IMG/VR virus record: IMGVR_UViG_3300017971_007904
Source of the DNA: a virus
Taxonomy: Duplodnaviria; Heunggongvirae; Uroviricota; Caudoviricetes
Length of the DNA: 64,000 nucleotides
Direction: 5' to 3' (one strand)
Position numbers and translations under genes: made by a program. The notes under the pieces were generated by a model, which saw only the letters and a list, made by a program, of their open reading frames with translations, was not told the origin of the DNA and made no database searches. Positions 2,013-49,903 of the stretch are shown here, piece by piece (position 1 is the first letter of the stretch; each line of letters opens with the position of its first letter).

Positions 2013-2014
2013 AT

Positions 2015-17966: not shown

Positions 17967-17979
17967 CCCGAGGTTTGTC

Positions 17980-18258: not shown

Positions 18259-18268
18259 GAGGTGCAAC

Positions 18269-19501: not shown

Positions 19502-19515
19502 TTGGAGGTGCAACC

Positions 19516-27985: not shown

Positions 27986-27994
27986 CTTTCTACA

Positions 27995-30482: not shown

Positions 30483-30507
30483 ATGAAACAGGAGGTTATC
30501 AAAAAGC

Positions 30508-32234: not shown

Positions 32235-32299
32235 GCCATAAGAGAGGGTTTGTTGAGAAAATGCTAAGGTTTTTGGCCCGATAAGCCGATACATGAAGT

Positions 32300-34936
32300 A
32301 TGACGAAGAAGGAACTGCTGAAGAAGTTATGCCTTGGGCGAATGAAGAAACTAGGCATACTTGATGCTGCGCACCTTGCTCGTCTCAAGAATGAACTTAT
32401 CGAGATCGAAGTTCAGGACCAATACGAGTATTTTCTAGGCCATTGTAAGAGTGGAACCCGCTGGGAACACAACGACCACAATCTGTTGGTTCCTTATCTC
32501 CTCAATCTATGTCCCGAGTTTGATATCACGAAGGAAACCGCCTTTACGATGGGTGAGTTTCCGGACATCGATGTGGACTATCTGGCTGTCGTGCGTGAGT
32601 ATCTGATGAACGAGTGGGCTCCAAAAAAGTTCGGAGCCGACAAGGTTTGCCATATTGGCACCTATTCCACGTACAACCTCAAACAGTCGCTAATCGACAT
32701 GGCTCGCATCTTTGGCGAGAGTAGAACTGAAGTGATGAATGTCACGACCCAGTTTGGTGCGAAGGATGACGAGGGTGATGCTTTGACCTGGGAAAAAGCC
32801 CTAACCATCTATCCGTCCTTTCGAGAGTACGTCAAGAACCACCCCGACGTGGCGGATGCCGCAAAGAAGATTTGTGGTCGGAATCGCAATATGGGCCAGC
32901 ATGCTGGTGGTTTCATTGTGTCTCGAACGCCCCTGACTGGTTTTGTACCATTGGTCCGAAACAAGAAGGATAACCAGCTTATGACGGCGTGGCCCGAGGG
33001 GCAGTCGGCGCAGGAGCTACAGGCGGTGGGCTTGGTAAAGCTGGACTTACTTTCGAGCAAGATGTCGACCCAGATCAAGGACTGTATTGGTTTGATTCGC
33101 CAGCGTCACGGCGAGGTGAAGATTTCGGCAAGAGAGGGGGGCTCGAATTGGTCGGATCATTCGTACTTGGACGATCCGAAGTGTATGGAAATGGCCAATA
33201 AGGGTGACTTACGATTCATCTTCCAATTTGATTCAGATGGTATCCGTCGTCTCGTTAGGACTGGTGGCGTCGATGGGTTTCAGGACTTAGAGGCATATTC
33301 GGCGTTATATCGTCCTGGGACCCTGAGCATGGGCATGCATGACGTGTACTGCAACCGGAAGAAAGGTAAGGAGGTATTCGACATACACCCTGTCTTGGAG
33401 CCGTATTTGCAAAAGACGTATGGTGTAGCAGTCTTCCAAGAGAGCGTGATGAAGGTTCTAAACAAGGCGGGCGGAATCCCGCTGCGGGATTGTATGGCGG
33501 TAATTAAGGCCATCAGCAAGAAGAAAATCGAGAAGTTTGCGAAGTACAAAGAGCTATTCATCCGGAACAGCCAGAGGATTCTGGGGATCAAGAAGGAGGC
33601 TGCCGGGCAGTTTTGGGAGCAGATTGAGGCGTTTGCTGGTTACGGGTTTAACAAGGCTCACTCTTGCGTCTATACGCATGTAAGCGCCCGACAGCTATAT
33701 CTGAAGTGTTACTATCCACTGGAGTACTATTGTAGTTATCTGAATCACATCAAAGGCGCAGACGCAAAGATGCGTGATTGTGTGCGGGATGCTGCTCGAC
33801 ACAATGTAACGGTTAACTCAATCGACATCAACAAGTCGGAAGAGCATTTTCAGATTGCGGATGACGATGAAATCTACTTCGGATTTGCCAACGTCAAGCA
33901 TGTGGGCGAGAAAGTGGCTACGAGGTTAGTAGAAGAGCGACGTAACGGCCCCTTTACGGACTTCCAGAACTTCCTAGATCGATTTGGGACGGATGCCAAG
34001 ATCATCCAGGCCCTTGTTTCTCTGGGGGCCTTTGAGGGTGATCCGGTTTGTCTCTACGAGTATTACGAGTACTACAAGGATTATCACACGAAGCAGACGC
34101 AGCGACGGAAGAGGTATGAGGTAGCACTTAAGAGGTACGAAGATCAATTCCATGAATTTGCCGGTCACAATTTCGCCTTTGGTACTGAGGAGCAGATTAC
34201 CTTCGCAATCGATAATATCGATGATGAGGAGGCTAAGGCAAAGCTTCGTCGCCTGCGTGGGAACTATCGCCGTACCTTGACGAACAATACAAACAACGAG
34301 CGGAACGATACAGGCCCTGTATCATTTGAAAATTTCGTTTCGCCAAAGAAATCTGCTATCAAAGAGGACCTTCGCAAGATTCTACAAGACAAGGCAGTAG
34401 CCGAAATTGAGTATTACGGTTTCACATGGTCCAGCCCGCTGGAAAGTTGCCCTAATCTCGAAGGGGACACGTTTGCGGAATACCGGTCTGCCCGTCTAGC
34501 TTTGGGCCCCGTGGAGGGAGCTATACAGGATGTGCGGGAGGTGAAGAGCCGAAAGGGTAATAAGTACTACGTTGTACAGCTTCTGGATGCTAACTGGGAA
34601 CTTGGGTTCGTCAATGTCTGGACGGCAGACATGGCTGAGTTTACCGATAAGTTGAAACCTGGGAATATTGTCCGCATGCGGCTTCAGGCTCCCAATCCTA
34701 AGTTTGCTTCTGAGCGGTACAGTCTGGAAAGCTACCCTCGGAAGCGACGGGGTATCACACGAGAACAGTCAAACGCTCGTGTTATGATACTACGTTCTCC
34801 GGATCAAGAGGTAAAGGTCGTGACCAATGAGCCCCCAATTACTCTTGATAAGGAAAGGGAAAAGAAATTGGAGGTAAAAGAGGATGTCGAAACAGCCGAA
34901 CTGTACCAAGACCTCGACAAACTCCTCGGCTTATGA
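32300..34936 (+). CDS. dnaE: DNA polymerase III alpha subunit (DnaE), C-terminal fragment (palm/fingers/thumb core)
   Basis: PDIDVDY, GQHAGGFIVSRTPL and FNKAHSCVYTHVSARQLYLKCYYPLEYY catalytic-core motifs; its N-terminal ~80 aa re-encode the helical region (ARLKNELIEIEVQDQYEYFL) also present at the end of the N-fragment. Confidence 0.88.
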   Translation: MTKKELLKKLCLGRMKKLGILDAAHLARLKNELIEIEVQDQYEYFLGHCKSGTRWEHNDHNLLVPYLLNLCPEFDITKETAFTMGEFPDIDVDYLAVVREYLMNEWAPKKFGADKVCHIGTYSTYNLKQSLIDMARIFGESRTEVMNVTTQFGAKDDEGDALTWEKALTIYPSFREYVKNHPDVADAAKKICGRNRNMGQHAGGFIVSRTPLTGFVPLVRNKKDNQLMTAWPEGQSAQELQAVGLVKLDLLSSKMSTQIKDCIGLIRQRHGEVKISAREGGSNWSDHSYLDDPKCMEMANKGDLRFIFQFDSDGIRRLVRTGGVDGFQDLEAYSALYRPGTLSMGMHDVYCNRKKGKEVFDIHPVLEPYLQKTYGVAVFQESVMKVLNKAGGIPLRDCMAVIKAISKKKIEKFAKYKELFIRNSQRILGIKKEAAGQFWEQIEAFAGYGFNKAHSCVYTHVSARQLYLKCYYPLEYYCSYLNHIKGADAKMRDCVRDAARHNVTVNSIDINKSEEHFQIADDDEIYFGFANVKHVGEKVATRLVEERRNGPFTDFQNFLDRFGTDAKIIQALVSLGAFEGDPVCLYEYYEYYKDYHTKQTQRRKRYEVALKRYEDQFHEFAGHNFAFGTEEQITFAIDNIDDEEAKAKLRRLRGNYRRTLTNNTNNERNDTGPVSFENFVSPKKSAIKEDLRKILQDKAVAEIEYYGFTWSSPLESCPNLEGDTFAEYRSARLALGPVEGAIQDVREVKSRKGNKYYVVQLLDANWELGFVNVWTADMAEFTDKLKPGNIVRMRLQAPNPKFASERYSLESYPRKRRGITREQSNARVMILRSPDQEVKVVTNEPPITLDKEREKKLEVKEDVETAELYQDLDKLLGL

Positions 34937-37164: not shown

Positions 37165-38277
37165 ATGGCCAAAACCGATAAAGAACCATTGCCTAGCAAT
37201 GGTAAAGGGAAGTCCGTGGCAACCTCTGACTCGCAGAAGTTAGACGACTTTCTGACTAAAAAGCTCGTTTCTGTGAAGGGGACGAAGAGGGTAGCGATCT
37301 TTAGTCATGCAACACCCGACCCAGATACCATAGGGTCGTTTGTAGCGTTGCGGCATCTGCTCCTTCACTCTCATGATCTGGAAGCCGACTGCTTCTATGA
37401 CGGCGACATTTCACACCCCCAGAATAAGACGGCGGTTCAGCTTCTGAACCCTGATATGAAACGGGTGAGGAACTACAAGGCGAGTGACTATTTGGTGAAT
37501 ATTCTGGTGGATACCATTCCAAGTCATGCTGGCACCGGCGATCACGATATCGATTTCGATATCGTGATCGACCACCACAAGGAGCTTCCTGGTGAGGAGT
37601 TCAAAGGGCTCTGCATACACCATCATAGTGGAAGTTGCACTGGCATCATCCATAGTTTGATGGAAGAGTATAGTCTGGAGTGGCAGGATGATGACGAGTC
37701 GCATATCCAGGTGGCGTCGGCTATCCTCGTCGGGATTATGACTGATACGGACTTTTGCACAAGGCCCGACACGACATACCGTGACTTCCAAGCCCAACAA
37801 CACATGTTTCGCTACAGCGATGCTGACATTGTGCGAAAGGTAGTGCGGTTCAACTGGCCTATGAGTTGGATCAAATTGATGGGCACGGCAATCAATGAAT
37901 ATCACGTTCAAGAGGGTGTCGCTGTTGCTGGTCTCGGTGCGTTAGAGGCGAACCAAAAGGATGCCGTTGCGTCCATCGCTGACTGGATGCTGACGTGGGG
38001 GAATATCCAAACGTCGGTTGTATTTGCTTTCTTTGATGGCGAGTACATTTCTGGGTCCATTCGGACGGTCGACCCAACGATTGAGGTCCACGAACTCTGC
38101 GCTAAATTGGGTGGCCGATTTGGTGAGGGGGGCGGAAAGAGTTTCGCCGGGCGGTACGCTAAGCCACTGGGTGCATTCGAGTTCGATCACGAGGAGGACC
38201 CGGAAGTGGTTGATCGCTGGTGGAGCCTCCAGAAGGAGCGTGAGATCGGCAAGATATTCAAGCTTCTCAATAAGTAG
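37165..38277 (+). CDS. DHH-family phosphoesterase (NrnA-like nanoRNase / pAp phosphatase)
   Basis: Motif I VAIFSHATPDPDTIGS, DHH motif IVIDHHK; DHHA1-like C-terminal region with GGG..FAG; 370 aa. Confidence 0.75.
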   Translation: MAKTDKEPLPSNGKGKSVATSDSQKLDDFLTKKLVSVKGTKRVAIFSHATPDPDTIGSFVALRHLLLHSHDLEADCFYDGDISHPQNKTAVQLLNPDMKRVRNYKASDYLVNILVDTIPSHAGTGDHDIDFDIVIDHHKELPGEEFKGLCIHHHSGSCTGIIHSLMEEYSLEWQDDDESHIQVASAILVGIMTDTDFCTRPDTTYRDFQAQQHMFRYSDADIVRKVVRFNWPMSWIKLMGTAINEYHVQEGVAVAGLGALEANQKDAVASIADWMLTWGNIQTSVVFAFFDGEYISGSIRTVDPTIEVHELCAKLGGRFGEGGGKSFAGRYAKPLGAFEFDHEEDPEVVDRWWSLQKEREIGKIFKLLNK

Positions 38278-38304
38278 ATCGACCACTCCTCACTCTAATA
38301 GGGT

Positions 38305-38610
38305 ATGGCACAACGACTATACCTTATCTACTGCTCACACTGTCACTTCAAGAAGTTGACAGACGGTTCTGACCTCGCCAATTTCGTTGAGGTTAAGACC
38401 TGCAAAGACTGTGGCGGCGCTCGCAAGTTCAAGTGTCCCCAATGTGGCCGTTTAGCGAAGGCTACAAAGGCGAATATCGGTACGCAAACCGAATCGCAAA
38501 AGCACATAGAGAAGATACGGGCGCAGCAAGAGTTGGAAAAAGAGAAGCGTAAGAAAGATCATCGCCGCTGGGTTAAAGAACGGTACGAAAAGGAGAAACG
38601 AGACGAATGA
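38305..38610 (+). CDS. small zinc-ribbon protein with Lys/Glu-rich tail
   Basis: CSHCH ... CKDCGG...CPQCG. Confidence 0.5.
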   Translation: MAQRLYLIYCSHCHFKKLTDGSDLANFVEVKTCKDCGGARKFKCPQCGRLAKATKANIGTQTESQKHIEKIRAQQELEKEKRKKDHRRWVKERYEKEKRDE

Positions 38611-39812
38611 AATTAAAGACGCTGCCCGGCGTACTTTACAACCCCGGTAATAGGGTTGAGGTTGATTCAGAAGAACCGTTACAAGATGTTCAATTCAACG
38701 TCCATAAGTTCACCAACCGTCCCAAACCGCCGAAGTCGAAGATTGTGATTATGTCAGCCTTCTCCGAGTTTGGGTGCGAATCGCTCATCCCCCTATATTG
38801 CATCCCTAGTTTACTTCAGAAGAAGTATCGTGGGTACTATTCTGTCGTTATGGGTTGGTATGGACGGGAATATCTCTACCGTCACCTAGTGGACGAGTTT
38901 TGGGAGTTGAAGGAGGAGTTTCAACCGCTACGGGATTACTGTCGGGCGTTTCACCACACGTCAAAAAACTTGAAGAACGTGGAGCGAAAGGCTGCTGAGT
39001 TCGGTAACGTAGTCAATGCGGGCGAGATCGGCGCTGTGGCGACTTACCCTCGTTTCTTGGTATGCGTGGTAGAACGGAAGGGTGTAAAGTGTGGCGGGCG
39101 TGTGACACAATTTCAAGAGTTTCAACAATGTCAAAAGTGTGGTTTCAGATATCAAGCTGCTGGAGTATTTGCGGATTGCGAAAAGGCTAGGAAGTCGGCA
39201 CGTTGGCTACCAATGCCTGCGAGCGAGAAGATGGAGCATGCGAAATCCATACTTCCGCCTAACGCCGTTGGTGTAACCGCTCGTGGTCGCAAGTGTTATG
39301 GTCGGAACTTGACCCCGGAGTTTTACGAAAGGCTCATTTGGTTGCTTGAGGATTTGGGGTATTCGCCCGTTTGGTTAGGAGAGAAGGTCACTACGTTACC
39401 ATGTCCTTGTTCTCACATTCTTGACATGAGTCGAAATACTGGGGCGAGGGATTTTGAACAAACACTGGCGTATGTGTCGCATATGACTTTTACAATCCAG
39501 TTTTGGACAGCATCGACACGTTTGGCCGGTCTAGTTGGTACGCCATTTGTCCTTTTCGAGTCGCCGGATCAGATATGGGGAGGTGGCCAGGAGGGTTACC
39601 GGTTACATCTTACAACGAGAGGTTCAAAGAAACTTGTCGCCGCTGATTACTTAACTGTAAATGAGAACAATACGAAGGCCCTTAAAGTGGTGGAGTCCGC
39701 AGTCCATGGTGTTGAAGAGGGGGACTTCTCGACAATGATAGGCCCCGTGGCGGACGAGTCAGCCGTCAAGAACATAATGCGTGGACGGCGTCATGAAATT
39801 AGTTGGTTTTAA
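38607..39812 (+). CDS. hypothetical protein
   Basis: 401 aa; ATGA overlap with the upstream gene. Confidence 0.55.
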   Translation: MKLKTLPGVLYNPGNRVEVDSEEPLQDVQFNVHKFTNRPKPPKSKIVIMSAFSEFGCESLIPLYCIPSLLQKKYRGYYSVVMGWYGREYLYRHLVDEFWELKEEFQPLRDYCRAFHHTSKNLKNVERKAAEFGNVVNAGEIGAVATYPRFLVCVVERKGVKCGGRVTQFQEFQQCQKCGFRYQAAGVFADCEKARKSARWLPMPASEKMEHAKSILPPNAVGVTARGRKCYGRNLTPEFYERLIWLLEDLGYSPVWLGEKVTTLPCPCSHILDMSRNTGARDFEQTLAYVSHMTFTIQFWTASTRLAGLVGTPFVLFESPDQIWGGGQEGYRLHLTTRGSKKLVAADYLTVNENNTKALKVVESAVHGVEEGDFSTMIGPVADESAVKNIMRGRRHEISWF

Positions 39813-40933
39813 GGAGAGCAATGTCAGAAGTACTTGATTTCATCCAGCGGGTTATCGATAGGACGGGGTTCACACGAGAGGTCTTTGTCGATAGGAAACT
39901 GCCGCTCAATCTCTCACGCTTGAGGATTATCCCCTTTTTCGGAGATAGCCGATCCGAATTTGTTTTAGCGACACTGATCCTTCCGAGACTCTTCCCAGAG
40001 GATTACACGATAGTGTGTTCGTGGCCCGGCCATGGTGGTCTTTATTCTGGCATTTCCGAGTACTGGTCAATTACTGACGAGGATGCCTTGTCTGATCTTG
40101 CTCGCAATCTCGATGGGTTTAACAACTTCAAAGCGGGTCAATACGAGCGGTTATTACTTCGCTACTTTGACAACGTCACAACCATTGACCAGTTGGTTCC
40201 CCAGTACTATCTGCACGGTTTCGGAGAGATGTTTTTCGAGAATTTCGATAAGATCGAGTATCACTTACCTTCGCTACCCTCAGTGAGCCTGGGGTGGGAT
40301 GATACCGCTGCTTTGAATCGTAAGGAGCGAATCTTTCTGATGCCGACGAAGTATATTACCCGTTGGTCCAACAAAGGTAGCTCGTCACAAATGTTTGTCG
40401 AGGAGAAGTTCTGGAGTAATCTTGTTAATAAGCTTCTCGCTAGAGATTACATGCCGATCCTCATGCAGAATTATATGACATACGACCTGTCACCGGAGTT
40501 TGCGAGCCAATGTGCTTACATCACCGAGAGGAATATCCTTGCTCGTCTCGGCGTTATGCGGGCTTGCGATTGCGTATTGGATGTCTTCAATGGTTTGTCA
40601 CGTTATGCTTTGGCGGCTCGATGTCCTTATTTCATTTGTGACGAAAGACAAAGGTACTTTTCGACGAGAGACTACATCCTTGACGACTTGTGTGGTAGTG
40701 AGTTACCAAAGGGTTTCTTGTTCTCTTTTGCTCCCATGGCGACAACTGATGCGGCTGAAAGGGTGAATAGTGCTATTGTGAATCGTTTGTATGACTTCCT
40801 TCTCAAGGTGAATCGTAATAGCTTGCCATCCACGGTTGAATGCACCCAGAGTCTTTCATATGACAACATTCGCAAGAGAGAGATCAATCGCATAGGCGTG
40901 CGTTTCATTTCATTACCACAAGAGGATAAGTAA
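39803..40933 (+). CDS. hypothetical protein
   Basis: 376 aa, overlapping the upstream gene by 10 nt. Confidence 0.55.
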   Translation: MVLRRAMSEVLDFIQRVIDRTGFTREVFVDRKLPLNLSRLRIIPFFGDSRSEFVLATLILPRLFPEDYTIVCSWPGHGGLYSGISEYWSITDEDALSDLARNLDGFNNFKAGQYERLLLRYFDNVTTIDQLVPQYYLHGFGEMFFENFDKIEYHLPSLPSVSLGWDDTAALNRKERIFLMPTKYITRWSNKGSSSQMFVEEKFWSNLVNKLLARDYMPILMQNYMTYDLSPEFASQCAYITERNILARLGVMRACDCVLDVFNGLSRYALAARCPYFICDERQRYFSTRDYILDDLCGSELPKGFLFSFAPMATTDAAERVNSAIVNRLYDFLLKVNRNSLPSTVECTQSLSYDNIRKREINRIGVRFISLPQEDK

Positions 40934-40999
40934 TTTGAGGAGGTTCATACTTTAATAATGCGGGTAAGCAAGCCCGTAACCTGAGGAAGAAGAACGAAT

Positions 41000-41206
41000 A
41001 TGAGCGTTTGCAATGTAAGAGTAGTTAACAGGCGGGGCTTTGAGCAGATGTTGAGAGCTTTCCGCCGAGCTTGTACCGAACACGGTATTCTGCATGAATG
41101 GAAAAGGCATGAATACTATGAGAAACCATCAGAGAAGCGAAGAAAGAAGGTTCGACAGATGGAGCGAGAAAAGAAGAAGGCCCAGCGTAAAAGAGGGAAA
41201 CGGTGA
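41000..41206 (+). CDS. rpsU: ribosomal protein bS21 homolog
   Basis: VRVVNRRGFEQMLRAFRRACTEHGILHEWKRHEYYEKPSEKRRKK parallels bacterial S21 ([39 protein letters not shown]..RKR). Confidence 0.8.
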   Translation: MSVCNVRVVNRRGFEQMLRAFRRACTEHGILHEWKRHEYYEKPSEKRRKKVRQMEREKKKAQRKRGKR

Positions 41207-41209
41207 TTT

Positions 41210-41566
41210 ATGAGTAAAACAACGAAAGTAATCAGTTTGTCAGTGCCGCCTCCCATCGATGATCACCTCACCGAAGTAGCGACCTTGCACGGACACGGTA
41301 ATCGGTCTAAGATAGCATGTGAAGTATTTGGGGATTTCCTCGACTTGAGTCCAAAGTCCCAAAGTGCCCTGCGGCGTGCTGCTGAGAAGCGTGGCGCTAC
41401 GGTGGCCGAACTGGTTGAATTTTTAGTCGACAAATTTCCTTTAGAAGATGATAGTGTTAGGCCGATAGTACTAAAGGTACCGGTGGATGTTTTGCGAGAC
41501 CCAGTGATGCTTGAATCCTGGCTTAAACGGAAAGTCGCCGCTTTGGTAAACCATCTTCATTCGTAA
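41210..41566 (+). CDS. hypothetical protein, possible ribbon-helix-helix N-terminus
   Basis: Beta strand (VISLSVP) followed by helices, weakly Arc/CopG-like. Confidence 0.4.
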   Translation: MSKTTKVISLSVPPPIDDHLTEVATLHGHGNRSKIACEVFGDFLDLSPKSQSALRRAAEKRGATVAELVEFLVDKFPLEDDSVRPIVLKVPVDVLRDPVMLESWLKRKVAALVNHLHS

Positions 41567-41585
41567 CGGTTAGCACAACGTAACC

Positions 41586-42059
41586 ATGCAAATTGTCGAA
41601 TCTAACGCAATACCAACTGATGTACGTCCGGTAATCGCCGAGGAGGTTGTGGAGGCGTTTAAGGTGGCTACACAGATGGAGAAAATTTGCCGGGAACATG
41701 ACGGTTTAGGAGTAGCAGCAGTCCAAGTCGGAATCCCTTGGCAACTTTTTGTTATTGCATTAAACGGCGATTTCCGCTATTGTGTTAATTGTACATACGA
41801 GCCAACGCCGGGCACATCTCGTGCCAGTAGTATCGAGGGTTGCCTGTCGTTACCAGGAAGGTTTTTTACTGTTGAAAGGTGGGCTGAAGTTCAAGTGGAG
41901 GGTCAGGAGATCATTCTGGAGGATGGGAAGCCAGCATTTACCGCATTCAGCATGTTAACGAACTTCATCGCCTTTCAGCACGAAATTGATCATCAGAACG
42001 GAATCTTGATTAGTGACTGTGGGGGTGAAGTGTTTCTTAGGCCCCTTAAGAGAAAGTAA
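41586..42059 (+). CDS. def: peptide deformylase
   Basis: All three PDF motifs: GVAAVQVG, EGCLSLPG, HEIDHQNG. Confidence 0.88.
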   Translation: MQIVESNAIPTDVRPVIAEEVVEAFKVATQMEKICREHDGLGVAAVQVGIPWQLFVIALNGDFRYCVNCTYEPTPGTSRASSIEGCLSLPGRFFTVERWAEVQVEGQEIILEDGKPAFTAFSMLTNFIAFQHEIDHQNGILISDCGGEVFLRPLKRK

Positions 42060-42067
42060 GGATTGTC

Positions 42068-42415
42068 ATGCCACTCACCGAAAAACAAGTACAACACGTT
42101 TGCCTTGCACACGTTGGTGCCAGAACCTGTCGTTACCTGGAGAACGACAAGAAGAATTGGCGGCTTCATCACTGTGTAAAGAAGGTATCTGGCAAGAAGA
42201 GGGCTATCGACAAAGAAGTCGCCAAGTATCTTGCCGATTGTAAAGCCAATCACAGCGACCCGAAGCAAGGTTGGAAACCCATTGGAGACGGTGGCACTTG
42301 TCAGGGCTATGCCTACCTGCCAACTGTTCTTCAGGGTTATGATATGAGTCATCAGAATGTCAACACGAGCCCGCCAAAGGTGAAGAAGGCGAAAAAGTTG
42401 CATTCGCATCCGTAA
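42068..42415 (+). CDS. hypothetical basic protein
   Basis: 115-aa ORF in an operon with def. Confidence 0.45.
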   Translation: MPLTEKQVQHVCLAHVGARTCRYLENDKKNWRLHHCVKKVSGKKRAIDKEVAKYLADCKANHSDPKQGWKPIGDGGTCQGYAYLPTVLQGYDMSHQNVNTSPPKVKKAKKLHSHP

Positions 42416-42429
42416 CCCAGGAGGCAATC

Positions 42430-42666
42430 ATGCCGAACCCCGAACTACGAGAGACAAAACCTGAACTCGCTGACGTGGTCGAACAACTTGAAGCTCGATA
42501 CGGAAGGGCTTTTGACCTTGGCGAAATGGCCGACCAAGCGACTTGCGCCGAAGGTATGCAGGAGCTTGGAAGGCACATCGCTAGGAACAGTTCGCAGGCC
42601 ACCATCAGCATTGGCGTCGGAGCCAAGGGTATCACACAAGTGACCATCACCGCAAACCCCAAGTAA
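42430..42666 (+). CDS. hypothetical small protein
   Basis: 78 aa, SD AGGAGG. Confidence 0.45.
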   Translation: MPNPELRETKPELADVVEQLEARYGRAFDLGEMADQATCAEGMQELGRHIARNSSQATISIGVGAKGITQVTITANPK

Positions 42667-42701
42667 TCAGGGAAACCCCGTAGAATCGCCCTGGTTAGAT
42701 G

Positions 42702-42731
42702 CCCTCGCACGCATGGCGTGCGAGGGTTTTT
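42702..42731 (+). terminator. Rho-independent terminator (between convergent genes)
   Basis: CCCTCGCACGC / GCGTGCGAGGG stem followed by TTTTT. Confidence 0.75.
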
Positions 42732-43177
42732 CATTTGATCATTTTGTATACGGTCTTCTCAACCTCGGTGTTCCAGGCGGCAGCCATAATGTCATCCTTC
42801 AAGTCCCAGTCGTCCACCATCCGAACTTGATCTGCGAGGATCGTAGAGACCTTCTTGTACTTCGATGACTTGTACATGTAGAACAGCAACAGGCCGATAG
42901 TGCCGATACCAAAAACTCCGATCAAGATACCGTCAGCTTGGATGTTAAGCCAGCCTTGCTGGACCTCATTATTTTCACCCTGGATTTCCAGAGCGTTTTG
43001 CAAACGGCCCAGTTCGATTTTGATGGCGTTCTGGTTGTTTTCTAGTGTGTTTTGATTCCCCTTAAGCTCTTCCAGTTGTTGTTCGAGTTCTGGGTTAATT
43101 CGGGGTGATAAATTGCCGCATCCGGATAGTGCTATCACACATATGACAGCTATCATAGCGATTGCGAGTCTAACCAT
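42731..43177 (-). CDS. lipoprotein with coiled-coil region and C-terminal TM helix (unimolecular-spanin-like architecture)
   Basis: Start at MVRLAIAM with AAGGAGG SD; lipobox LSGC; heptad-like QQLEELKGNQNTLENNQNAIKIELGRLQNALEIQ; TM segment ILIGVFGIGTIGLLLFYMY near the C-terminus. Confidence 0.55.
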   Translation of the reverse strand: MVRLAIAMIAVICVIALSGCGNLSPRINPELEQQLEELKGNQNTLENNQNAIKIELGRLQNALEIQGENNEVQQGWLNIQADGILIGVFGIGTIGLLLFYMYKSSKYKKVSTILADQVRMVDDWDLKDDIMAAAWNTEVEKTVYKMIK

Positions 43178-43264
43178 GTTCCCTCCTTTGTGAATATCTA
43201 TTGACGTAGATTGAAACTTCTGGTTCAATAAGGGTGTCAACCAAGTTCTGTGTGAGGTAGTCCT

Positions 43265-43750
43265 ATGTCTATACAACCAACGGACCCGTCTAAGCAACGG
43301 GAAATGGAGTCGTTTTTTCTGTCAGAAAGCGAACAGGACGACACTTTTACGGATGAAAGTGACGTAATGGAATTGATCGCTGTAGCGCCCAAGTCTCGTA
43401 TCCTTGAAGATGGCGATGAAGATGACACACCGGACGAGTCCGTAACAATGGAAGATGCGGCGGATTTCCTTACTCGTTTTTTCGAGGGCAAACGATGGCA
43501 TTGTGGTGGTCCGATCCCTAAAGCGGTTCTTCTATGTGACCGCCACCTGCAAATGGTTTTACGGCTTGAAATGAACGATTGCGTTGACCTCTTTTATGAG
43601 GCGCTGGGTGTTCCCAAACGATTTACTCGTAAAGAAACAAAGTTGCTATCATCTCTTTTGGATGAGGCGTACCAGAAGTCAATTCCGAAACATCATACTG
43701 GAGGTTTGGTGTTGGTGTATTTGCGGCTTTGCATCGGTCTGGATATCTGA
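43265..43750 (+). CDS. hypothetical acidic protein
   Basis: 161 aa. Confidence 0.5.
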   Translation: MSIQPTDPSKQREMESFFLSESEQDDTFTDESDVMELIAVAPKSRILEDGDEDDTPDESVTMEDAADFLTRFFEGKRWHCGGPIPKAVLLCDRHLQMVLRLEMNDCVDLFYEALGVPKRFTRKETKLLSSLLDEAYQKSIPKHHTGGLVLVYLRLCIGLDI

Positions 43751-43772
43751 TCGCAACATACTCCAATAGTGC

Positions 43773-44102
43773 ATGGACCTAGAATTGATATCAGGTGCGT
43801 TCTTTTACGATGATATCGTGCCGAAAGACAAGCGATACCTATTTAAGTACTTCAGTGGTGATCCACAACGGAGGTTTGTTGCATACGCATTTACTTTCGA
43901 GAAATTCAGAGATCGTCATGGGTCGTACAAGTTCTGCCGTGGCTTTGTAGACCATACTGGGTTTCAGGTGACACGGCGTGTCATTTTCAAATGGCTAGCA
44001 CGGATTAGAGACATCGAGGCAGCGCTATCAGAAGCCACCAAAGCTTTTGATATGCAGACGATAGAGACCATCAGGACAGGTAAATTTCGCTTTAGGTGTT
44101 AA
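43773..44102 (+). CDS. hypothetical protein
   Basis: 109 aa. Confidence 0.45.
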   Translation: MDLELISGAFFYDDIVPKDKRYLFKYFSGDPQRRFVAYAFTFEKFRDRHGSYKFCRGFVDHTGFQVTRRVIFKWLARIRDIEAALSEATKAFDMQTIETIRTGKFRFRC

Positions 44103-45073
44103 CAATGCCACAGCTTCGAGCGGTTCTCATAATGGGTTCCCCGTCTTCTGGGAAGACGAGCTATGCAATGTCGGATGTCTTCTCCAACTTTGTTCGCATA
44201 TCGCCTGAGGCATTTGACAGCAAAGAGGCATTACGAGAGACGATCCAGATCGTAGTGGAGAAAGGTCGGCACCTCGTCATCGATGCTTGTAATGGAACGG
44301 TTTCCCAGAGAAAGTTCTACATCGATATCATTCAGCCCAGTGGAAAGTATCAGATCGAATGCCACCACCTAAAGACCACCATGAGGGAAGCCAGAGACAA
44401 CGCCCGTGTTCGCCAGAAACGTGGTGGGCATCGTTTGAACACGGCTCAATTCATCAAGTACAGAAATGGCCTCGTTTCGCCGTCTGCCGAGGAAGGTTTT
44501 TCCGTTGTAGTGGAGATTGATTTTGTTCGCCGGGCCGAGCGGGAGTTTCACAATATTGGCGTCTTCTTGTCGTTATGGTCTATATGTTTCTCCAAGGTAC
44601 CGAAGGAATTTCCCCGTCATCCTGACGAGTTGGAGATGCATTCGGATATCGACGACATCTTGTTAGCGTACTTCAAGCGGGGTTACAAGTTTGTGATCTT
44701 GGCCAACATACCTGAAATTGCCGAGAGGGTTGTGACCGAGACAATGGCGCAGAATTGTATCATCGAGGCTATCAAAAGGTTATCGGTGCCCGTTGATGCG
44801 TTCTACTACAGCCCCCACGCATTGACTGAAGCTCACGATACAACCCTTCCTAACACCAAGTTTGCTATCTTGGCGAGAGACAAACACAAGATCGACCTGG
44901 GTCGGTCTACCATGGTGGGCCACTCAGAAGTAGAGAGGTGTTTCGCTCGCCAAGCCGGATTTGGATTGTACCTGCCAAGAGATCAGTTCTTTTGGAGTGG
45001 CAGGAACCGCCTGACGGAAGAAGAGCCGGATGGCGAAGCAAAAGAAGCCCTCAAAGTGGTGGAAGACTCATGA
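44096..45073 (+). CDS. P-loop kinase-like protein (polynucleotide-kinase-like N-terminus)
   Basis: Walker A MGSPSSGKTS within the first 25 aa; C-terminal half sits where T4 Pnk carries its HAD phosphatase, but the DxDGT motif is not conserved. Confidence 0.5.
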   Translation: MLTMPQLRAVLIMGSPSSGKTSYAMSDVFSNFVRISPEAFDSKEALRETIQIVVEKGRHLVIDACNGTVSQRKFYIDIIQPSGKYQIECHHLKTTMREARDNARVRQKRGGHRLNTAQFIKYRNGLVSPSAEEGFSVVVEIDFVRRAEREFHNIGVFLSLWSICFSKVPKEFPRHPDELEMHSDIDDILLAYFKRGYKFVILANIPEIAERVVTETMAQNCIIEAIKRLSVPVDAFYYSPHALTEAHDTTLPNTKFAILARDKHKIDLGRSTMVGHSEVERCFARQAGFGLYLPRDQFFWSGRNRLTEEEPDGEAKEALKVVEDS

Positions 45074-45705
45074 GTGTTTTGAAGATTCGAGATGATGACC
45101 TTCTTTGGAAGTACTACCAGAAGTATTACACGGTGGATGACCTTAAGGTTCCACATCCGCAGAACCTCTGTAACTACTTTTGGACGGCGGTCTTTGGTGC
45201 TATTCGATCCTTCTATATTGAAAAGCCGCTGTGGGTCGTTTGGCTGTCCGCCATTGTCTTGATTGGTGGGGTGCAGATGCTATTCTCTTGTTTGGGAACT
45301 TGGAATTTACCCGTGTTCATTCGTGTGTTCTTTGTTCCGCTTATTTTTGTCATACCTATAAGCGGGGCATTAACACTCGCCTCGACAGGGGGACGATTAA
45401 AGGGTTGGGCACTTTCCATCTATGCTGGTCTTCTACTGGGGGCGGTCATCGGTATGTTCATCGGGGCTCTGATGCTGGCGTTCAATGATCCTAACCTCAC
45501 ATGGGAGTCGTTTCTATTGTGCTTTGCTGCTCTCGCAGGTGCCGCTCTGGTGGTCGGCGTGTTCATAGGTCTAGGCTTCTTGATATATACCATCTGTAAA
45601 CCGGTGGCTGGCTGGCGGTTTGTTAAGACGATAGGCGTTTACCTTATGGCCGTCAAGCATCGTATGTGTCCTTTGATGGAACCTCCCCAGTCATTCAAAG
45701 AATAA
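45070..45705 (+). CDS. integral membrane protein (about 4 TM helices)
   Basis: ATG at 45070 overlapping the previous stop (ATGA); hydrophobic segments. Confidence 0.5.
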   Translation: MSVLKIRDDDLLWKYYQKYYTVDDLKVPHPQNLCNYFWTAVFGAIRSFYIEKPLWVVWLSAIVLIGGVQMLFSCLGTWNLPVFIRVFFVPLIFVIPISGALTLASTGGRLKGWALSIYAGLLLGAVIGMFIGALMLAFNDPNLTWESFLLCFAALAGAALVVGVFIGLGFLIYTICKPVAGWRFVKTIGVYLMAVKHRMCPLMEPPQSFKE

Positions 45706-46150
45706 CCGAATCTTCATCGACACAGATACCTCGATAGACATTCACACAGTCAGAATCTTCCGACACCATGAGGTAGTCGAGATGGTAGTCGGAGGTGAAA
45801 TACTCGCAAAATGAAGGGGTGTCGCTGGTGGCGTAGGCTGCTTGACCCTTTTGATAGACGAAGTCTTCCTCGCCGCCACACAAGACAATTTCGTCAGCAA
45901 AGTCGTCGCTATCAAAACAGTCGATTTCTTCGCCGAAACCCTCACAAATGGCGCAAATCATGCTACCGCTTAGATACGTCACGATCAAGGAGTAGTCACC
46001 GAGTTCGGCGATTGCGATATCCACACCGTCGACATCGTACCTCTCAACTTGGTTGATCACAAAGTCCTCTTGACCAGTGAACTGCTTTGATATTTCATCG
46101 TCGACCGATATCATTGCACCGCTTTTCAGCATGGCCAGTTCGTCAATCAT
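45695..46150 (-). CDS. hypothetical acidic protein
   Basis: 151 aa, Asp/Glu/Cys-rich. Confidence 0.45.
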   Translation of the reverse strand: MIDELAMLKSGAMISVDDEISKQFTGQEDFVINQVERYDVDGVDIAIAELGDYSLIVTYLSGSMICAICEGFGEEIDCFDSDDFADEIVLCGGEEDFVYQKGQAAYATSDTPSFCEYFTSDYHLDYLMVSEDSDCVNVYRGICVDEDSVIL

Positions 46151-46273
46151 GCGTATCTCCCTTTTCGTATATCTAGTAACATCCCAGATTTTATGACTAA
46201 TTTGCCTAAGGAATGTGGGTTCTGGATGCCGATAAAGGAAATAGACCCAATTTATCTCCTAAAGGATTAACTG

Positions 46274-46849
46274 ATGCCTGGCTCATTACCCTTCGTTAAA
46301 GCTGAGATGCAGAGACTGTATGAGAAATACCTAGGAAGTGATCTTGTGCAAAGACGGCGTTTAGGCGACAATAACTTAGACGATGATGAGTCGTTAGCTA
46401 AAGCTGGAGCATCTACCATGAACGAAGATACAAGACAGAAAGATATCGTCGACATACAGGAATCACTTGAGATTCAAGCGATTCCTGGTAGGACGTATCT
46501 GTGCGTTGTGGTTTTGGACTCTCCCAAAGAGGGTCAGAGGCGTATGCACAAAGTGCGGCATGTTCGGTGTTATCACGGTTCGGCTTTCACTCAAGGCTAT
46601 CCCTACGATCAGAATAGCGACTCATATCTAATCAACTGCGTAGAGGCTCTACACATAGGCCACATTTCACTTGCATTTCAAGTGGCCGTGCCTGATACGG
46701 AATGGAAAGTGACGATTCCCGTGCCGCCATCTGTTGTGGATCGCCACCTGTCCGATTCTCAGAAAGCAGAACTCAAAATGATACGAGACAGGTATAAGGA
46801 CGACCGGTTTCAACTTAAGATGGTACAAATGTCGGGGTGTGAGTGCTAA
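46274..46849 (+). CDS. hypothetical protein
   Basis: 191 aa. Confidence 0.5.
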   Translation: MPGSLPFVKAEMQRLYEKYLGSDLVQRRRLGDNNLDDDESLAKAGASTMNEDTRQKDIVDIQESLEIQAIPGRTYLCVVVLDSPKEGQRRMHKVRHVRCYHGSAFTQGYPYDQNSDSYLINCVEALHIGHISLAFQVAVPDTEWKVTIPVPPSVVDRHLSDSQKAELKMIRDRYKDDRFQLKMVQMSGCEC

Positions 46850-47415
46850 CAATGGCTGCTATCGATAAGAAAGAACGAAGGCTGCAAGCTAGAATAACGC
46901 CTGCGAAGGAAGAGTACTTCATGGGCGTTTTGTTCATGCTATCCGCCATATGCAAGGACCCACATGGCCAGGAAGCGGCCCTATTGATCGATAACAAGGA
47001 TCGGCTAATCACCTTTGGAGTCAACCATATCTCACAGCCCGCAGGTTACCAGAACAGAAAGCTCAGTTGGGACCCCGAGGATCGGTACCTTGGGATGACC
47101 GCTTCCGGCGACTCAGCAATGGATCGGGCTTTGAAATTGTATGTCCCAGCGTCGACGATGTGCGAACCGTTTACAAGCCACACGATGTATCTGACTGGAC
47201 CGCCGACTTTGCGGTTGGTTAACCGAGCGGCGGCGAATGGTCTCAAGAATTTCATATATGGGCCACTAAGGTCTCAGATGTTTGACGAAGACGATTGGAA
47301 GCAGGCGGTCGAGCTTGCCAAAGTACACGACATGACACTGAAGGAGTTTAATGGGAATTTAGGTTGGTTGCGTGATCGCACGAAAGCCCTATCTGAGACA
47401 TTCCGTTTATTCTAA
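46843..47415 (+). CDS. dCMP-deaminase-fold protein with degenerate zinc/catalytic motifs
   Basis: KEEYFMGVLFMLSAICKDPHGQEAALLIDNKDRLITFGVNH parallels the dCMP deaminase N-terminal core (EYFMxVAxLSAxRSKDPxxQVGAxIVxxxNKIVGIGYNG), but the HAE and PCxxC positions read GMTASGD / PASTMCEP. Confidence 0.45.
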   Translation: MLTMAAIDKKERRLQARITPAKEEYFMGVLFMLSAICKDPHGQEAALLIDNKDRLITFGVNHISQPAGYQNRKLSWDPEDRYLGMTASGDSAMDRALKLYVPASTMCEPFTSHTMYLTGPPTLRLVNRAAANGLKNFIYGPLRSQMFDEDDWKQAVELAKVHDMTLKEFNGNLGWLRDRTKALSETFRLF

Positions 47416-48256
47416 CGGTTTGCCGCTGGATAGGATCAATGTTCAATCACTATATACTTACATGACAAATTCCTGCTCAACAACTAGTGGTGTGAATCAG
47501 TTAGGTTGTCCCGACCCATCGTTGGGCATCTGTCCTGACTTTCGCATCAAACGACATGACACGAAACCACCCTTCGAGGTAGTAGTAAAAGATTGTAACG
47601 AGCCGATTGACTTGACCAATACAGTTGTCGAGGCTTCCATGTGGGCTACGGCAAAATTCAAGTCGGCAGTTGCGGAAACGGATACGTACTTCCGTTTGGC
47701 TGATGACATCGGATTTGAGCAATCTATGGTTGGAGATATCATCGTAATCGCAAATCAGGTACGAGCACCAGAGCAGATGCTTGTAACTGGTTTCGATGAA
47801 GAGAATAAGTTGATTCGGGTTCAAAGGGAATACAACGGAACGAAAGCTTGGCCATACAAGAAAGGCACCCCAATCAGGATATTTAGATTCATCAATTCGG
47901 TCGGTTCGACCGAGATGACGTATATGGATATCGCACAGGTGGATGGAACAACTGAAGAAGATGTTCTGGTTGAAAGCAAATTGATTTATGAGTGGACATC
48001 ACAGGACACCTGCCTTCCTGGCTGTTATTATCTGGAGTTGAAATTACTGAAAATGGTTTTACCTAACGGTTCTCCAAGTAATGTGTCTTCAATGTACCTT
48101 ACATCGCCTATAGTACCGAGTTTTGTTAGTCCCAGTGCCTCTGATCTAGGGTGCGACCTTGGATTGGGGGTTGAATGGGTTCGTCGATTTCCGGTGGACA
48201 AACCCGGTTTCCTTATCGAAATTGTCGATTCTCCGACAAATGAAAACCTTGTGTAA
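47372..48256 (+). CDS. hypothetical protein (start ambiguous: GTG 47372 or ATG 47462)
   Basis: 294-aa ORF; no clear SD at either start. Confidence 0.45.
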   Translation: MIARKPYLRHSVYSNGLPLDRINVQSLYTYMTNSCSTTSGVNQLGCPDPSLGICPDFRIKRHDTKPPFEVVVKDCNEPIDLTNTVVEASMWATAKFKSAVAETDTYFRLADDIGFEQSMVGDIIVIANQVRAPEQMLVTGFDEENKLIRVQREYNGTKAWPYKKGTPIRIFRFINSVGSTEMTYMDIAQVDGTTEEDVLVESKLIYEWTSQDTCLPGCYYLELKLLKMVLPNGSPSNVSSMYLTSPIVPSFVSPSASDLGCDLGLGVEWVRRFPVDKPGFLIEIVDSPTNENLV

Positions 48257-48270
48257 AGGGGGTTAAACTC

Positions 48271-49893: not shown

Positions 49894-49903
49894 GAGAACA
49901 GTT

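What the first reader, a model, noticed from the sequence alone, without database searches (positions are those of the whole stretch)
41000..42059. Translation-associated cluster: ribosomal protein S21 homolog, unknown RHH-like protein, peptide deformylase
Both S21 and PDF are recognisable by eye, and all three PDF motifs are present. Together with IF3 (49904), DnaJ (54413), ClpP (21321), the tmRNA and the GluRS-like gene, the window encodes an unusually broad set of translation and proteostasis components for a virus. That breadth is typical of very large phages that remodel host ribosomes.
Basis: partly seen in the sequence, partly recalled or inferred. Interest (0 to 1): 0.5.

Follow-up and report, generated by a model that had tools for sequence, protein, structure and literature searches.

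The report
Huge-phage S21, RHH, deformylase operon
A very large bacteriophage carries its own ribosomal protein S21, a small DNA-binding-type (ribbon-helix-helix) protein and a peptide deformylase as three adjacent genes; such genes are already known in huge phages, but their fixed arrangement throughout this phage lineage appears not to have been described.

Summary
41000-41206 encodes a true bS21 homologue. 41586-42059 encodes a compact peptide deformylase (PDF) with all three catalytic motifs. 41210-41566 encodes a diverged tandem ribbon-helix-helix (RHH) protein.

The window comes from a ~298 kb contig. It is syntenic with the complete, curated 595 kb phage genome LR756511 (Al-Shayeb et al. 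2020) and with IMG/VR contigs, so the huge-phage reading is supported, although the window itself has no virion genes.

My added finding is that the trio is the core of a rigid operon: two ~400-aa paralogues of unknown function, S21, RHH, PDF, and a small protein with four invariant cysteines. This order recurs in all eight independent lineages I sampled, on contigs up to 673 kb. The genes are tightly spaced or overlapping and under strong purifying selection (dN/dS 0.03-0.07). No other cassette gene lies next to any of the 80 most similar cellular PDF genes.

S21, PDF, IF3 and tmRNA in huge phages are already published, so this is a new member of a known kind. The function of the RHH protein and its unknown neighbours is the only open point. 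Host unresolved. Interest is modest.

The parts
38305..38610 (+). Small conserved ORF (101 aa) at the head of the conserved block; function unknown.
   Evidence: Orthologues lie at the same position in all related loci that extend that far (all except the 1.2-kb contig L010). It has no Pfam or NCBIfam assignment.
38607..39812 (+). Protein A (401 aa): conserved protein of unknown function, paralogue of the next gene.
   Evidence: 40-66% identical orthologues sit upstream of S21 in every lineage. No hits in Pfam, PHROGs, NCBIfam or PDB. The structure model was unusable, pLDDT 28.
39803..40933 (+). Protein B (376 aa from the first possible start; a public gene call starts at 39821, giving 370 aa): paralogue of A, function unknown.
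   Evidence: 23% identical to A with shared invariant residues. Orthologues lie directly upstream of S21 in all lineages.
41000..41206 (+). Ribosomal protein bS21 homologue (68 aa).
   Evidence: PF01165 at 48.7 bits. TIGR00030 at 47.9 bits, above its cutoff of 28.95. Full-length alignment to bS21 of solved ribosomes. dN/dS 0.03 in a related pair.
41210..41566 (+). Protein X (118 aa): two ribbon-helix-helix units in one chain, followed by a conserved C-terminal strand-helix tail (V-L-K-[IV]-P ... W). Predicted DNA-binding regulator.
   Evidence: Family alignment. 38 of 60 members match DUF6364 and 37 match RHH_1. The model shows two helix pairs plus a C-terminal helix, pLDDT 78.8. P0026 shows a clean tandem duplication. 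271 clusters at 50% identity.
41586..42059 (+). Peptide deformylase (157 aa), type-1B-like. It has a complete catalytic core, keeps the short eta3-like segment (ILISD) and lacks the long C-terminal ribosome-docking helix.
   Evidence: PF01327 at 77.2 bits. PDB hits include 2ew5, 5mtc and 3uwa. Catalytic residues are invariant and the C-terminus is truncated relative to E. coli Def. It scores below all NCBIfam Def cutoffs.
42068..42415 (+). Protein C4 (115 aa): small conserved protein with four invariant cysteines (C12, C21, C36, C78) and a QGYD motif. Function unknown; possibly metal-binding.
   Evidence: It lies directly after PDF in seven of the eight lineages; it was not detected in L002. 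Alignment. No Pfam or PDB hits. dN/dS 0.07.
42430..42666 (+). 78-aa ORF, the last gene of the unit. Conserved only in the nearest relative.
   Evidence: Called as a gene in the identical public contig. 49% identical orthologue in L008 only.
42701..42727 (+). Strong intrinsic-terminator-like hairpin (12-bp stem, 9 G-C pairs, then a T-run) at the convergence with the minus-strand gene. Probable end of the transcription unit.
   Evidence: It is the only long-stem site in 38000-46500. The total count of terminator-like sites there does not exceed shuffled controls, so function is inferred from stem strength and position.
42731..43297 (-). Convergent conserved gene (148-188 aa depending on the start), with a lipoprotein-like N-terminus. 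It bounds the cassette.
   Evidence: Orthologues lie on the opposite strand after C4 in seven of the eight lineages; none was detected in L006. Weak lipoprotein-family hits only.

Best explanation
The interval is the core of a co-transcribed operon (A-B-S21-X-PDF-C4) that is conserved throughout a lineage of huge phages.

(1) The bS21 homologue most likely replaces or supplements host bS21 on the 30S subunit. bS21 is a small protein that sits next to the anti-Shine-Dalgarno helix. Swapping it would bias translation initiation towards phage mRNAs.

(2) The deformylase is a catalytically complete metalloenzyme. It most likely removes the N-formyl group from the large amount of phage protein made during infection, so that N-terminal maturation does not become limiting. 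It lacks the ribosome-docking helix of cellular Def, as other viral PDFs do.

(3) The protein between them is a single-chain double ribbon-helix-helix protein. It most likely binds DNA and sets the level or timing of expression of this operon or of other phage genes.

Shown here: gene identities, catalytic motifs, operon-like spacing, conserved synteny, purifying selection, and absence of the cassette from the cellular PDF loci examined. Inferred, not shown: incorporation of S21 into ribosomes, deformylase activity, DNA binding by X and its target, and co-transcription.
For: Identities.

Operon structure. The gaps in the window are 3, 19, 8 and 14 nt. Several relatives have overlapping stop and start codons. 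A strong hairpin lies at 42701-42727.

Conservation. The same gene order occurs in 16 loci representing 8 lineages, on contigs up to 673 kb, at 25-79% identity.

Selection. dN/dS is 0.03-0.07 for S21, X, PDF and C4.

Phage origin. The window is syntenic with a curated complete phage genome.

RHH nature of X. The weak top fold hits are all RHH proteins.

Published support. A phage bS21 is incorporated into E. coli 70S ribosomes (PMC6375957). C-terminally truncated viral PDFs can be active in vivo (PMC5591237). S21, IF3, PDF and tmRNA occur in huge phages (PMC7162821).
Against: There are no expression or biochemical data.

The window's own X does not reach any Pfam threshold, and no fold match is significant.

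The PDF scores below every NCBIfam Def cutoff. Some truncated viral PDFs fail to complement a def mutant, so activity is not guaranteed.

No convincing operator repeats or promoter were found near the cassette.

The three other conserved operon genes (A, B, C4) have no known function, so the 'translation' theme covers only part of the operon.

The window holds no virion genes, and the host is unknown.
Confidence: 0.72

Rival explanations
1. X does not act mainly as a transcription factor. It is an antitoxin-like or adaptor protein whose conserved C-terminal tail binds and controls a neighbouring gene product (PDF, S21 or C4). The RHH part then provides autoregulation, as in type II toxin-antitoxin modules.
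For: 22 of 60 family members hit the CopG_antitoxin model. Spacing to the downstream PDF gene is tight or overlapping, as in antitoxin-toxin pairs. The C-terminal strand-helix with an invariant Trp is the best-conserved and most confidently modelled part, pLDDT about 94.
Against: No known toxin domain lies next to X. The PDF has an intact catalytic site and is under purifying selection like an enzyme. The cassette is fixed across a whole phage lineage rather than patchy as toxin-antitoxin modules usually are. In the L001/L013 lineage an extra ORF separates X from PDF.
Confidence: 0.12
2. The deformylase has been repurposed. It is not a general co-translational Def substitute. Instead it protects infection against natural PDF inhibitors, or it acts on a narrow set of substrates away from the ribosome.
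For: It scores below all NCBIfam Def cutoffs. It lacks the alpha3 ribosome-binding helix. It has two clade-specific invariant cysteines, C35 and C69. Accessory PDFs can confer inhibitor resistance (PMC12690207). The cyanophage PDF was proposed to favour D1 maturation (PMC7162821 citing Frank 2013).
Against: All metal-binding and catalytic residues are retained. Vp16 and '1906' show that truncated viral PDFs can perform general deformylation in vivo. Nothing in the sequence indicates substrate specificity.
Confidence: 0.12
3. The contig is a bacterial chromosome fragment or a large plasmid-like element, and the genes are ordinary housekeeping copies.
For: The 64-kb window holds no capsid, portal, terminase or tail gene. 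Al-Shayeb et al. note that some large plasmid-like elements carry similar translation genes.
Against: The window is syntenic with a complete, curated, circular phage genome and with IMG/VR viral contigs. More than half of the ORFs tested have no family assignment. There are no other ribosomal proteins, rRNA or tRNA genes. None of 80 cellular PDF loci carries any of the other cassette genes tested, and the closest cellular PDFs are only 31-41% identical.
Confidence: 0.04

Closest known systems
Phage-encoded bS21: pelagiphage HTVC008M (Mizuno et al. 2019, PMC6375957), huge phages (Al-Shayeb et al. 2020, PMC7162821), freshwater Bacteroidota phages (Chen et al. 2022, PMC9723584)
   Same: It is a small basic bS21 homologue carried by a large phage and under purifying selection. 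It is expected to enter host 30S subunits and influence initiation.
   Different: In Chen et al. the gene lies on the reverse strand among capsid, portal and terminase genes. Mizuno et al. report variable contexts. Here it sits in a fixed cassette with an RHH protein and a PDF, far from any structural gene seen. The window's copy is short (68 aa) and has no N-terminal extension, while most clade relatives carry a 6-13 aa insertion after the first strand. No aromatic residue is evident in the window copy's C-terminal tail after the conserved YYEKPSEKRR segment. I did not align it to a Bacteroidota bS21 to compare it with the Tyr54 discussed by Chen et al..
Viral peptide deformylases: Vibrio phage Vp16 PDF (PDB 5mtc), cyanophage S-SSM7 PDF (PDB 3uwa)
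   Same: It has a type-1B-like catalytic core with all three motifs, and the long C-terminal ribosome-binding helix is absent.
   Different: Identity to those enzymes and to other phage PDFs is only about 30-38%. It keeps an eta3-like ILISD segment plus about 13 residues, unlike the 137-aa Vp16 enzyme. It has two clade-specific invariant cysteines. It is always encoded next to S21 and an RHH gene.
Ribbon-helix-helix regulators (Arc, Mnt, CopG; Pfam RHH_1 and DUF6364), and tandem-RHH viral regulators such as AvtR (PDB 4hv0)
   Same: It has the strand-helix-helix sequence pattern and family-level Pfam matches. Like AvtR or engineered single-chain Arc, the window protein carries two RHH units in one chain.
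   Different: The family has an extra conserved C-terminal strand-helix tail with an invariant Trp. Its DNA target is unknown. The window's copy is too diverged to pass any Pfam threshold on its own.

Membership tests
Ribosomal protein bS21 (PF01165 / TIGR00030) | Profile match above the curated cutoffs | tested here: met
   PF01165 scores 48.7 bits against 27. TIGR00030 scores 47.9 bits against 28.95.
Ribosomal protein bS21 (PF01165 / TIGR00030) | Full-length similarity to bS21 seen in solved ribosomes, including the conserved Y-E-K-P-S/T-x-x-R/K core | tested here: met
   It aligns over residues 7-68 with 71-aa bS21 chains at E about 2e-9. See also the alignment.
Ribosomal protein bS21 (PF01165 / TIGR00030) | Physical incorporation into the 30S subunit | not testable with these tools
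   This has only been shown for another phage bS21 (PMC6375957).
Peptide deformylase (PF01327; Def) | Pfam domain match above the gathering score | tested here: met
   77.2 bits against 22.8.
Peptide deformylase (PF01327; Def) | Three catalytic motifs with the metal ligands: GxGxAAxQ, EGCLS and HExxH | tested here: met
   G40/G42/A45/Q47, E84-S88 and H132/E133/H136 are invariant with E. coli Def.
Peptide deformylase (PF01327; Def) | Score at the level of housekeeping bacterial Def (NCBIfam equivalog or subfamily cutoffs) | tested here: not met
   NF001159 scores 71.1 against 125. TIGR00079 scores 62.8 against 103.95.
Peptide deformylase (PF01327; Def) | C-terminal alpha3 helix that docks type 1B Def on the ribosome | tested here: not met
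   The protein ends 21 residues after HEIDH, and most clade members end 10-16 residues after it. This is typical of viral PDFs.
Peptide deformylase (PF01327; Def) | Deformylase activity | not testable with these tools
Ribbon-helix-helix superfamily (RHH_1 / DUF6364) | Profile match | tested here: inconclusive
   The window copy gives only RHH_5 at E=0.02, below threshold. Of 60 family members, 38 match DUF6364 and 37 match RHH_1, with best E-values of 4e-9 and 5e-7.
Ribbon-helix-helix superfamily (RHH_1 / DUF6364) | Strand-helix-helix fold that forms a two-stranded sheet on dimerisation | tested here: inconclusive
   The monomer model shows two helix pairs, each preceded by an extended segment. 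Foldseek hits are not significant, although the top ones are RHH proteins.
Ribbon-helix-helix superfamily (RHH_1 / DUF6364) | Sequence-specific DNA binding | not testable with these tools
   No convincing operator repeat was found nearby.
Type II toxin-antitoxin module (RHH antitoxin) | Adjacent gene encoding a recognised toxin domain | tested here: not met
   The neighbours are S21, PDF and the C4 protein. None matches a toxin family.
Huge-phage lineage (Al-Shayeb et al. 2020 set) | Shared gene order with a curated complete phage genome | tested here: met
   21 window proteins match LR756511.1, 20 of them in the same order (the DUF444 row is an opposite-strand shadow ORF), over about 25 kb of that genome, corresponding to about 45 kb of the window. 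That record is a 595,163-bp complete circular phage.
Huge-phage lineage (Al-Shayeb et al. 2020 set) | Virion and packaging genes on the same molecule | tested here: not met
   None was found in the ORFs tested across the 64-kb window. The rest of the ~298 kb contig was not available.

The most novel reading that the evidence does not exclude
The conserved six-gene unit A-B-S21-X-PDF-C4 works as one system for taking over host protein synthesis. In this reading the uncharacterised partners are new ribosome- or nascent-chain-associated factors: the two ~400-aa paralogues, the four-cysteine protein, and the tailed RHH protein. For example, X or C4 might recruit or control the helix-less PDF, or X might couple operon output to S21 or PDF levels. 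If so, this phage lineage encodes a previously unknown accessory translation module rather than two unrelated borrowed host genes.
Probability: 0.15. Interest if true: 0.6.

Novelty: new member of a known kind. Interest (0 to 1): 0.33.

Why it matters
Phage-encoded S21 and PDF are established examples of viruses carrying parts of the translation apparatus, so the finding is not surprising in itself.

What it adds is a well-defined and deeply conserved gene arrangement. It offers a tractable starting point for asking how huge phages use these proteins: a short operon with two recognisable enzymes or factors, a probable regulator, and three conserved unknowns. If the unknown partners act on the ribosome or on nascent chains, the cassette would reveal new accessory translation factors. 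If they do not, it is simply a conserved early or middle operon with mixed functions.

Tried and rejected
1. A megablast of 12 kb around the cluster against GenBank phages found no match. Relatives are detectable only at the protein level.

2. A single-sequence search for X in viral contigs found nothing. Its relatives were found through their neighbours and then through a profile.

3. Foldseek searches of the X model against PDB and BFVD gave no significant hit.

4. Proteins A/B and C4 gave nothing in Pfam, PHROGs, NCBIfam, or in PDB sequence and profile searches. The weak PP2A-B56 and '56B' hits (E about 0.01-0.06) are treated as chance.

5. AlphaFold on protein A, with only its in-window paralogue as alignment, gave pLDDT 28, which is unusable. 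My by-eye impression of a GT-B or heptosyltransferase-like fold is therefore untested and I make no claim from it.

6. The genome-contig scan with the X alignment failed because no stretch was conserved enough. The scan with the PDF profile returned only distant cellular PDFs from many phyla, so no host could be inferred.

7. The operator and promoter search around the cassette returned only short two-copy repeats, and promoter-like sites did not exceed shuffled controls.

8. Host inference failed. The S21 nearest cellular relatives are WOR-3 proteins at about 50% identity. One X-family member sits in a Chryseobacterium MAG. The published profile for LR756511 is 82% unknown. SD-like motifs are moderately enriched, 32 of 90 genes against 11 +/- 3 expected, which argues weakly against a host that avoids SD. 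None of this is decisive.

9. A non-canonical IF3 start as a lineage-wide feature is rejected, because relatives use ATG.
Full report
**1. The observation**

All are on the + strand and are separated by 3 and 19 nt.

- **S21.** The first ORF is a bS21 homologue by every test. It matches Pfam PF01165 at E=6e-13, 48.7 bits against a gathering score of 27. It matches PHROG 21469 'ribosomal protein S21'. It passes the NCBIfam TIGR00030 equivalog cutoff, 47.9 against 28.95 bits. It aligns over its full length with bS21 chains from solved bacterial ribosomes.
- **PDF.** The third ORF is a peptide deformylase. It matches PF01327 at E=1.3e-21, 77.2 bits against 22.8, and PHROG 2890. It aligns with solved PDFs, including H. 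pylori Def and the phage enzymes Vp16 (5mtc) and S-SSM7 (3uwa). In an alignment with E. coli Def, the motif-1 residues G40/G42/A45/Q47, motif 2 (E84-G-C-L-S88) and motif 3 (Q131-H-E-x-D-H136) are invariant.
All are real:
  - tmRNA at 27636-27988 (ARAGORN, and Rfam at 95.6 bits);
  - IF3, DnaJ and ClpP;
  - a class-I Glu/Gln-tRNA-synthetase catalytic domain at 28415-29743.

**2. What the molecule is**

No DNA-level relative exists in GenBank phages. At the protein level, the flanking 401-aa protein and PrkA both have their best hit in LR756511.1, a 595,163-bp 'uncultured phage'.

Twenty-one window proteins match that genome, 20 of them in the same order (the DUF444 row in that table is an opposite-strand shadow ORF). 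The order is PrkA, DUF444, SpoVR, DnaE, the two ~400-aa proteins, S21, X, PDF, the small Cys-rich protein, the TPP enzyme and IF3 (the DUF444 identification of the window gene is). Sibling accessions of 642, 636 and 634 kb match the largest genomes of Al-Shayeb et al. 2020. That paper's supplementary table lists a complete, circular, curated genome of exactly 595,163 bp from vernal-pool mud, SR-VP_PHAGE_COMPLETE_CIR-CU-CL_42_23.

Five IMG/VR contigs (44-165 kb) share the same block. The exact X protein of the window occurs on a 297,696-bp public contig.

The window itself contains no recognisable virion or packaging gene. It holds only PhoH, a 'phage metallopeptidase' domain and many unassigned ORFs. 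The viral assignment therefore rests on synteny with the curated phage genome and the IMG/VR contigs. I consider that strong but indirect.

**3. The middle protein (X)**

On its own, X gives only a sub-threshold RHH_5 hit (E=0.02). Orthologues recovered from the syntenic loci gave an alignment, and a profile search with it returned 389 proteins. Most are about 85 aa, and many lie on contigs of 260-673 kb. An exhaustive profile search found 271 clusters at 50% identity with E<=0.001.

Of 60 members scanned individually, 38 match DUF6364, 37 match RHH_1 and 22 match CopG_antitoxin.

- **Short form.** It consists of a strand (I-M-S-L-S), two helices, an acidic linker, a second strand (V-I-L-K-I-P) and a final helix with an invariant Trp.
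- **Long forms.** These include the window's 118-aa protein and carry a second helix pair. P0026 shows this to be a clean tandem duplication of the RHH unit.
- **Structure.** The AlphaFold model (pLDDT 78.8, pTM 0.39) has two helix pairs plus a very confident C-terminal helix. The strands are unpaired, as expected for a fold that forms its sheet only in a dimer or pseudo-dimer.
- **Fold searches.** Foldseek finds nothing significant. Its weak top hits are single-chain Arc, VapB, the tandem-RHH viral regulator AvtR, Arc, NikR and Mnt.

DNA binding remains an inference.

**4. The cassette**

The main thing I can add is that the trio is not a chance neighbourhood. The same order occurs in every locus examined:
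- a ~100-aa ORF;
- protein A (~400 aa);
- protein B (~379 aa, a paralogue of A);
- S21;
- X;
- PDF;
- a ~92-aa protein with four invariant cysteines and a QGYD motif (C4);
- a convergent ~170-aa gene on the opposite strand.

The loci represent eight lineages:

| Lineage | Loci |
|---|---|
| 1 | window / L007 |
| 2 | L008 |
| 3 | L001 / L013 / L014 |
| 4 | L002 |
| 5 | L003 / L004 / L011 / L012 |
| 6 | L005 / L009 / L010 |
| 7 | L006 |
| 8 | L015 / L016 |

. A few genes fell below tblastn detection in individual loci: S21 and C4 in L002, where an S21-like ORF is nevertheless present, and the convergent gene in L006.

Amino-acid identities to the window run from 25% to 79%. Gene spacing is tight everywhere, and several lineages have overlapping stop and start codons for S21/X and X/PDF. 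One lineage has an extra 195-aa ORF inserted between X and PDF.

In the window, a 12-bp G+C-rich hairpin with a T-run at 42701-42727 follows the last + strand gene. It is the only strong terminator-like site in 38000-46500, and it lies where the convergent gene ends.

Between a closely related pair of loci, dN/dS is 0.03 for S21, 0.04 for X, 0.05 for PDF and 0.07 for C4, at dS 0.14-0.40. All four are therefore maintained by selection.

A scan of 185,579 species genomes with the clade's PDF profile returned only distant PDFs, 31-41% identical and from many phyla. None of the 80 retained loci has S21, X, A, B or C4 beside its PDF.

**5. Features of the two recognisable proteins**

*PDF*
- It ends 21 residues after HEIDH. 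Most clade members end 10-16 residues after it.
- It keeps a segment (ILISD) that aligns with the E. coli eta3 element (KLFMDY).
- It lacks the alpha3 helix that docks E. coli Def beside the ribosomal exit tunnel (background in PMC5591237).
- That paper shows such truncated viral PDFs can be active in vivo (Vp16, '1906') or fail to complement ('1577', '2750'). Activity here is likely but not assured.
- The clade has two extra invariant cysteines, C35 and C69.
- It scores below every NCBIfam Def cutoff, so it is well diverged from housekeeping Def.

*S21*
- The window copy and its nearest relatives are short, 63-69 aa.
- The more distant clade members carry a 6-13 residue insertion after the first strand, and longer basic tails.
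- The closest cellular bS21 sequences are from candidate division WOR-3, at about 50% identity over 72% of the protein. No donor can be named.

**6. How it probably works**

*Established knowledge*
- bS21 sits at the platform next to the anti-SD helix and promotes initiation.
- A phage bS21 is incorporated into E. coli 70S ribosomes (PMC6375957).
- Def removes the formyl group co-translationally.

*My inference*
- The operon supplies a phage bS21 that enters host 30S subunits and biases initiation towards phage messages.
- It supplies a free-standing deformylase that keeps N-terminal maturation going during the burst of phage protein synthesis.
- The double-RHH protein acts as a DNA-binding regulator that sets the level or timing of expression.
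- SD-like motifs are moderately enriched upstream of window genes, 32 of 90 against 11 +/- 3 at random positions, with G peaking near -8. An SD-dependent mode of action for S21 is therefore plausible.

*Not shown*
- Incorporation of S21, PDF activity, DNA binding by X and co-transcription are all untested.

*Rivals*
- X may be an antitoxin-like or adaptor partner of PDF or C4. The CopG_antitoxin hits, the tight coupling and the conserved tail favour this. The lack of a toxin domain, the lineage-wide fixation and the inserted ORF in one lineage count against it.
- The PDF may be repurposed.
- The element may be cellular or a plasmid, which I consider unlikely.

**7. Comparison with what is known, and novelty**

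S21, IF1/IF3, PDF, tmRNA and aminoacyl-tRNA synthetases in huge phages are explicitly described by Al-Shayeb et al. 2020. The nearest named relative of this window belongs to that data set. PDF genes occur in 111 GenBank phage records.

Mizuno et al. 2019 report variable contexts for viral ribosomal-protein genes. Chen et al. 2022 find bS21 mostly beside structural genes, and their paper does not mention deformylase. I found no paper describing the S21-RHH-PDF linkage, but those searches cover open-access literature only.

I therefore rate this as a new member of a known kind, with a modest new observation: the conserved six-gene cassette and the tailed, often duplicated RHH family.

**8. What led nowhere**

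- Proteins A, B and C4 resisted every sequence method.
- The only structure prediction allowed for protein A failed, with pLDDT 28.
- No operator or promoter could be identified.
- The host could not be inferred.

**9. Verdict**

Interest is modest (0.33), because the category is already published. The open value lies in the unknown conserved partners of S21 and PDF.

Noticed in passing
window 22665-25193 and 32300-34936 (+): The DnaE-type DNA polymerase III alpha gene is split into two ORFs about 7 kb apart. The first half also carries an intein (Hint plus LAGLIDADG, residues ~82-439). The break falls between the 'ERFL' segment and the 'PDIDVD' active-site segment. The second half starts with about 85 aa that look like a duplicate of the junction region. 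In LR756511 the gene is one 1,183-aa ORF with no intein. The intervening DNA holds the tmRNA, the GluRS-like gene, a HAD hydrolase and two sugar-nucleotide enzymes. No split-intein signature is obvious.
   Followed up: partly
window 49877-50431 (+): Homology to IF3 extends upstream of the first canonical start codon (TTG at 49985). There is no ATG, GTG or TTG in frame back to the stop at 49877. An AGGAG lies 7 nt before an ATC codon at 49904. This infC therefore probably starts on a non-canonical AUC codon, recalling the AUU start that autoregulates bacterial infC. Relatives L002, L004 and L006 start on ATG, so this is specific to the sublineage.
   Followed up: partly
window 15724-21144: A complete PrkA (15724-17898), DUF444/YeaH-like (18269-19501) and SpoVR (19516-21144) module is present. 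PrkA and SpoVR are 51-57% identical to their LR756511 counterparts. PrkA homologues also occur in Thermus phages, in Ralstonia jumbo phage RsoM2USA and in other huge phages.
   Followed up: partly
window 27636-27988 (+): A phage-encoded tmRNA (Rfam 95.6 bits) has an unusually short predicted tag peptide, AEPVRMAA. No tRNA genes occur anywhere in the 64-kb window.
   Followed up: no
window 38607-40933 (+): Two paralogous ~400-aa proteins (23% identical to each other) lie directly upstream of S21 in every lineage. They match nothing in Pfam, PHROGs, NCBIfam or PDB. By eye they recall a GT-B-like glycosyltransferase with an inserted Cys-x-x-Cys ribbon. I could not test this, because the structure model failed.
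   Followed up: partly
window 42068-42415 (+): A small protein lies directly after PDF in seven of the eight lineages (not detected in L002). It has four invariant cysteines (C12, C21, C36, C78), an invariant G-D...C-x-G-Y segment and a QGYD motif near the C-terminus, and no known family. It may be a metal- or cluster-binding partner.
   Followed up: partly
L001 9427-10014 and L013 4345-4932: One lineage has an extra 195-aa ORF inserted between X and PDF. By eye it resembles a CYTH-type domain, which I did not test. This shows that the X-PDF junction tolerates an insertion.
   Followed up: no
window 47372-49893 (+): A thiamine-pyrophosphate enzyme with all three TPP domains (48271-49893) and an unknown 294-aa protein before it (47372-48256) are conserved next to IF3 across the lineage at 38-56% identity. 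This is an unusual metabolic gene for a phage.
   Followed up: no
window 1152-9463, 29781-32294, 52740-53633, 57461-58198, 62435-63373: The window is rich in genes that look cellular. They include a response-regulator-PAS protein, an HD-domain protein, an HldE-like PfkB kinase plus cytidylyltransferase, a C26 glutamine amidotransferase, a HAD hydrolase, two UDP-glucose/GDP-mannose dehydrogenase-like genes, two NAD-dependent epimerases and a glycosyltransferase. Together they suggest phage-encoded sugar-nucleotide or surface-glycan metabolism.
   Followed up: no
S21 orthologues in L001-L006 (alignment A3): Most clade members carry a 6-13 residue insertion between the first strand and the first helix of bS21, and longer basic C-terminal tails. 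The window and L008 copies lack both. Al-Shayeb et al. mention N-terminal extensions in huge-phage S21, and this looks like a related feature.
   Followed up: partly
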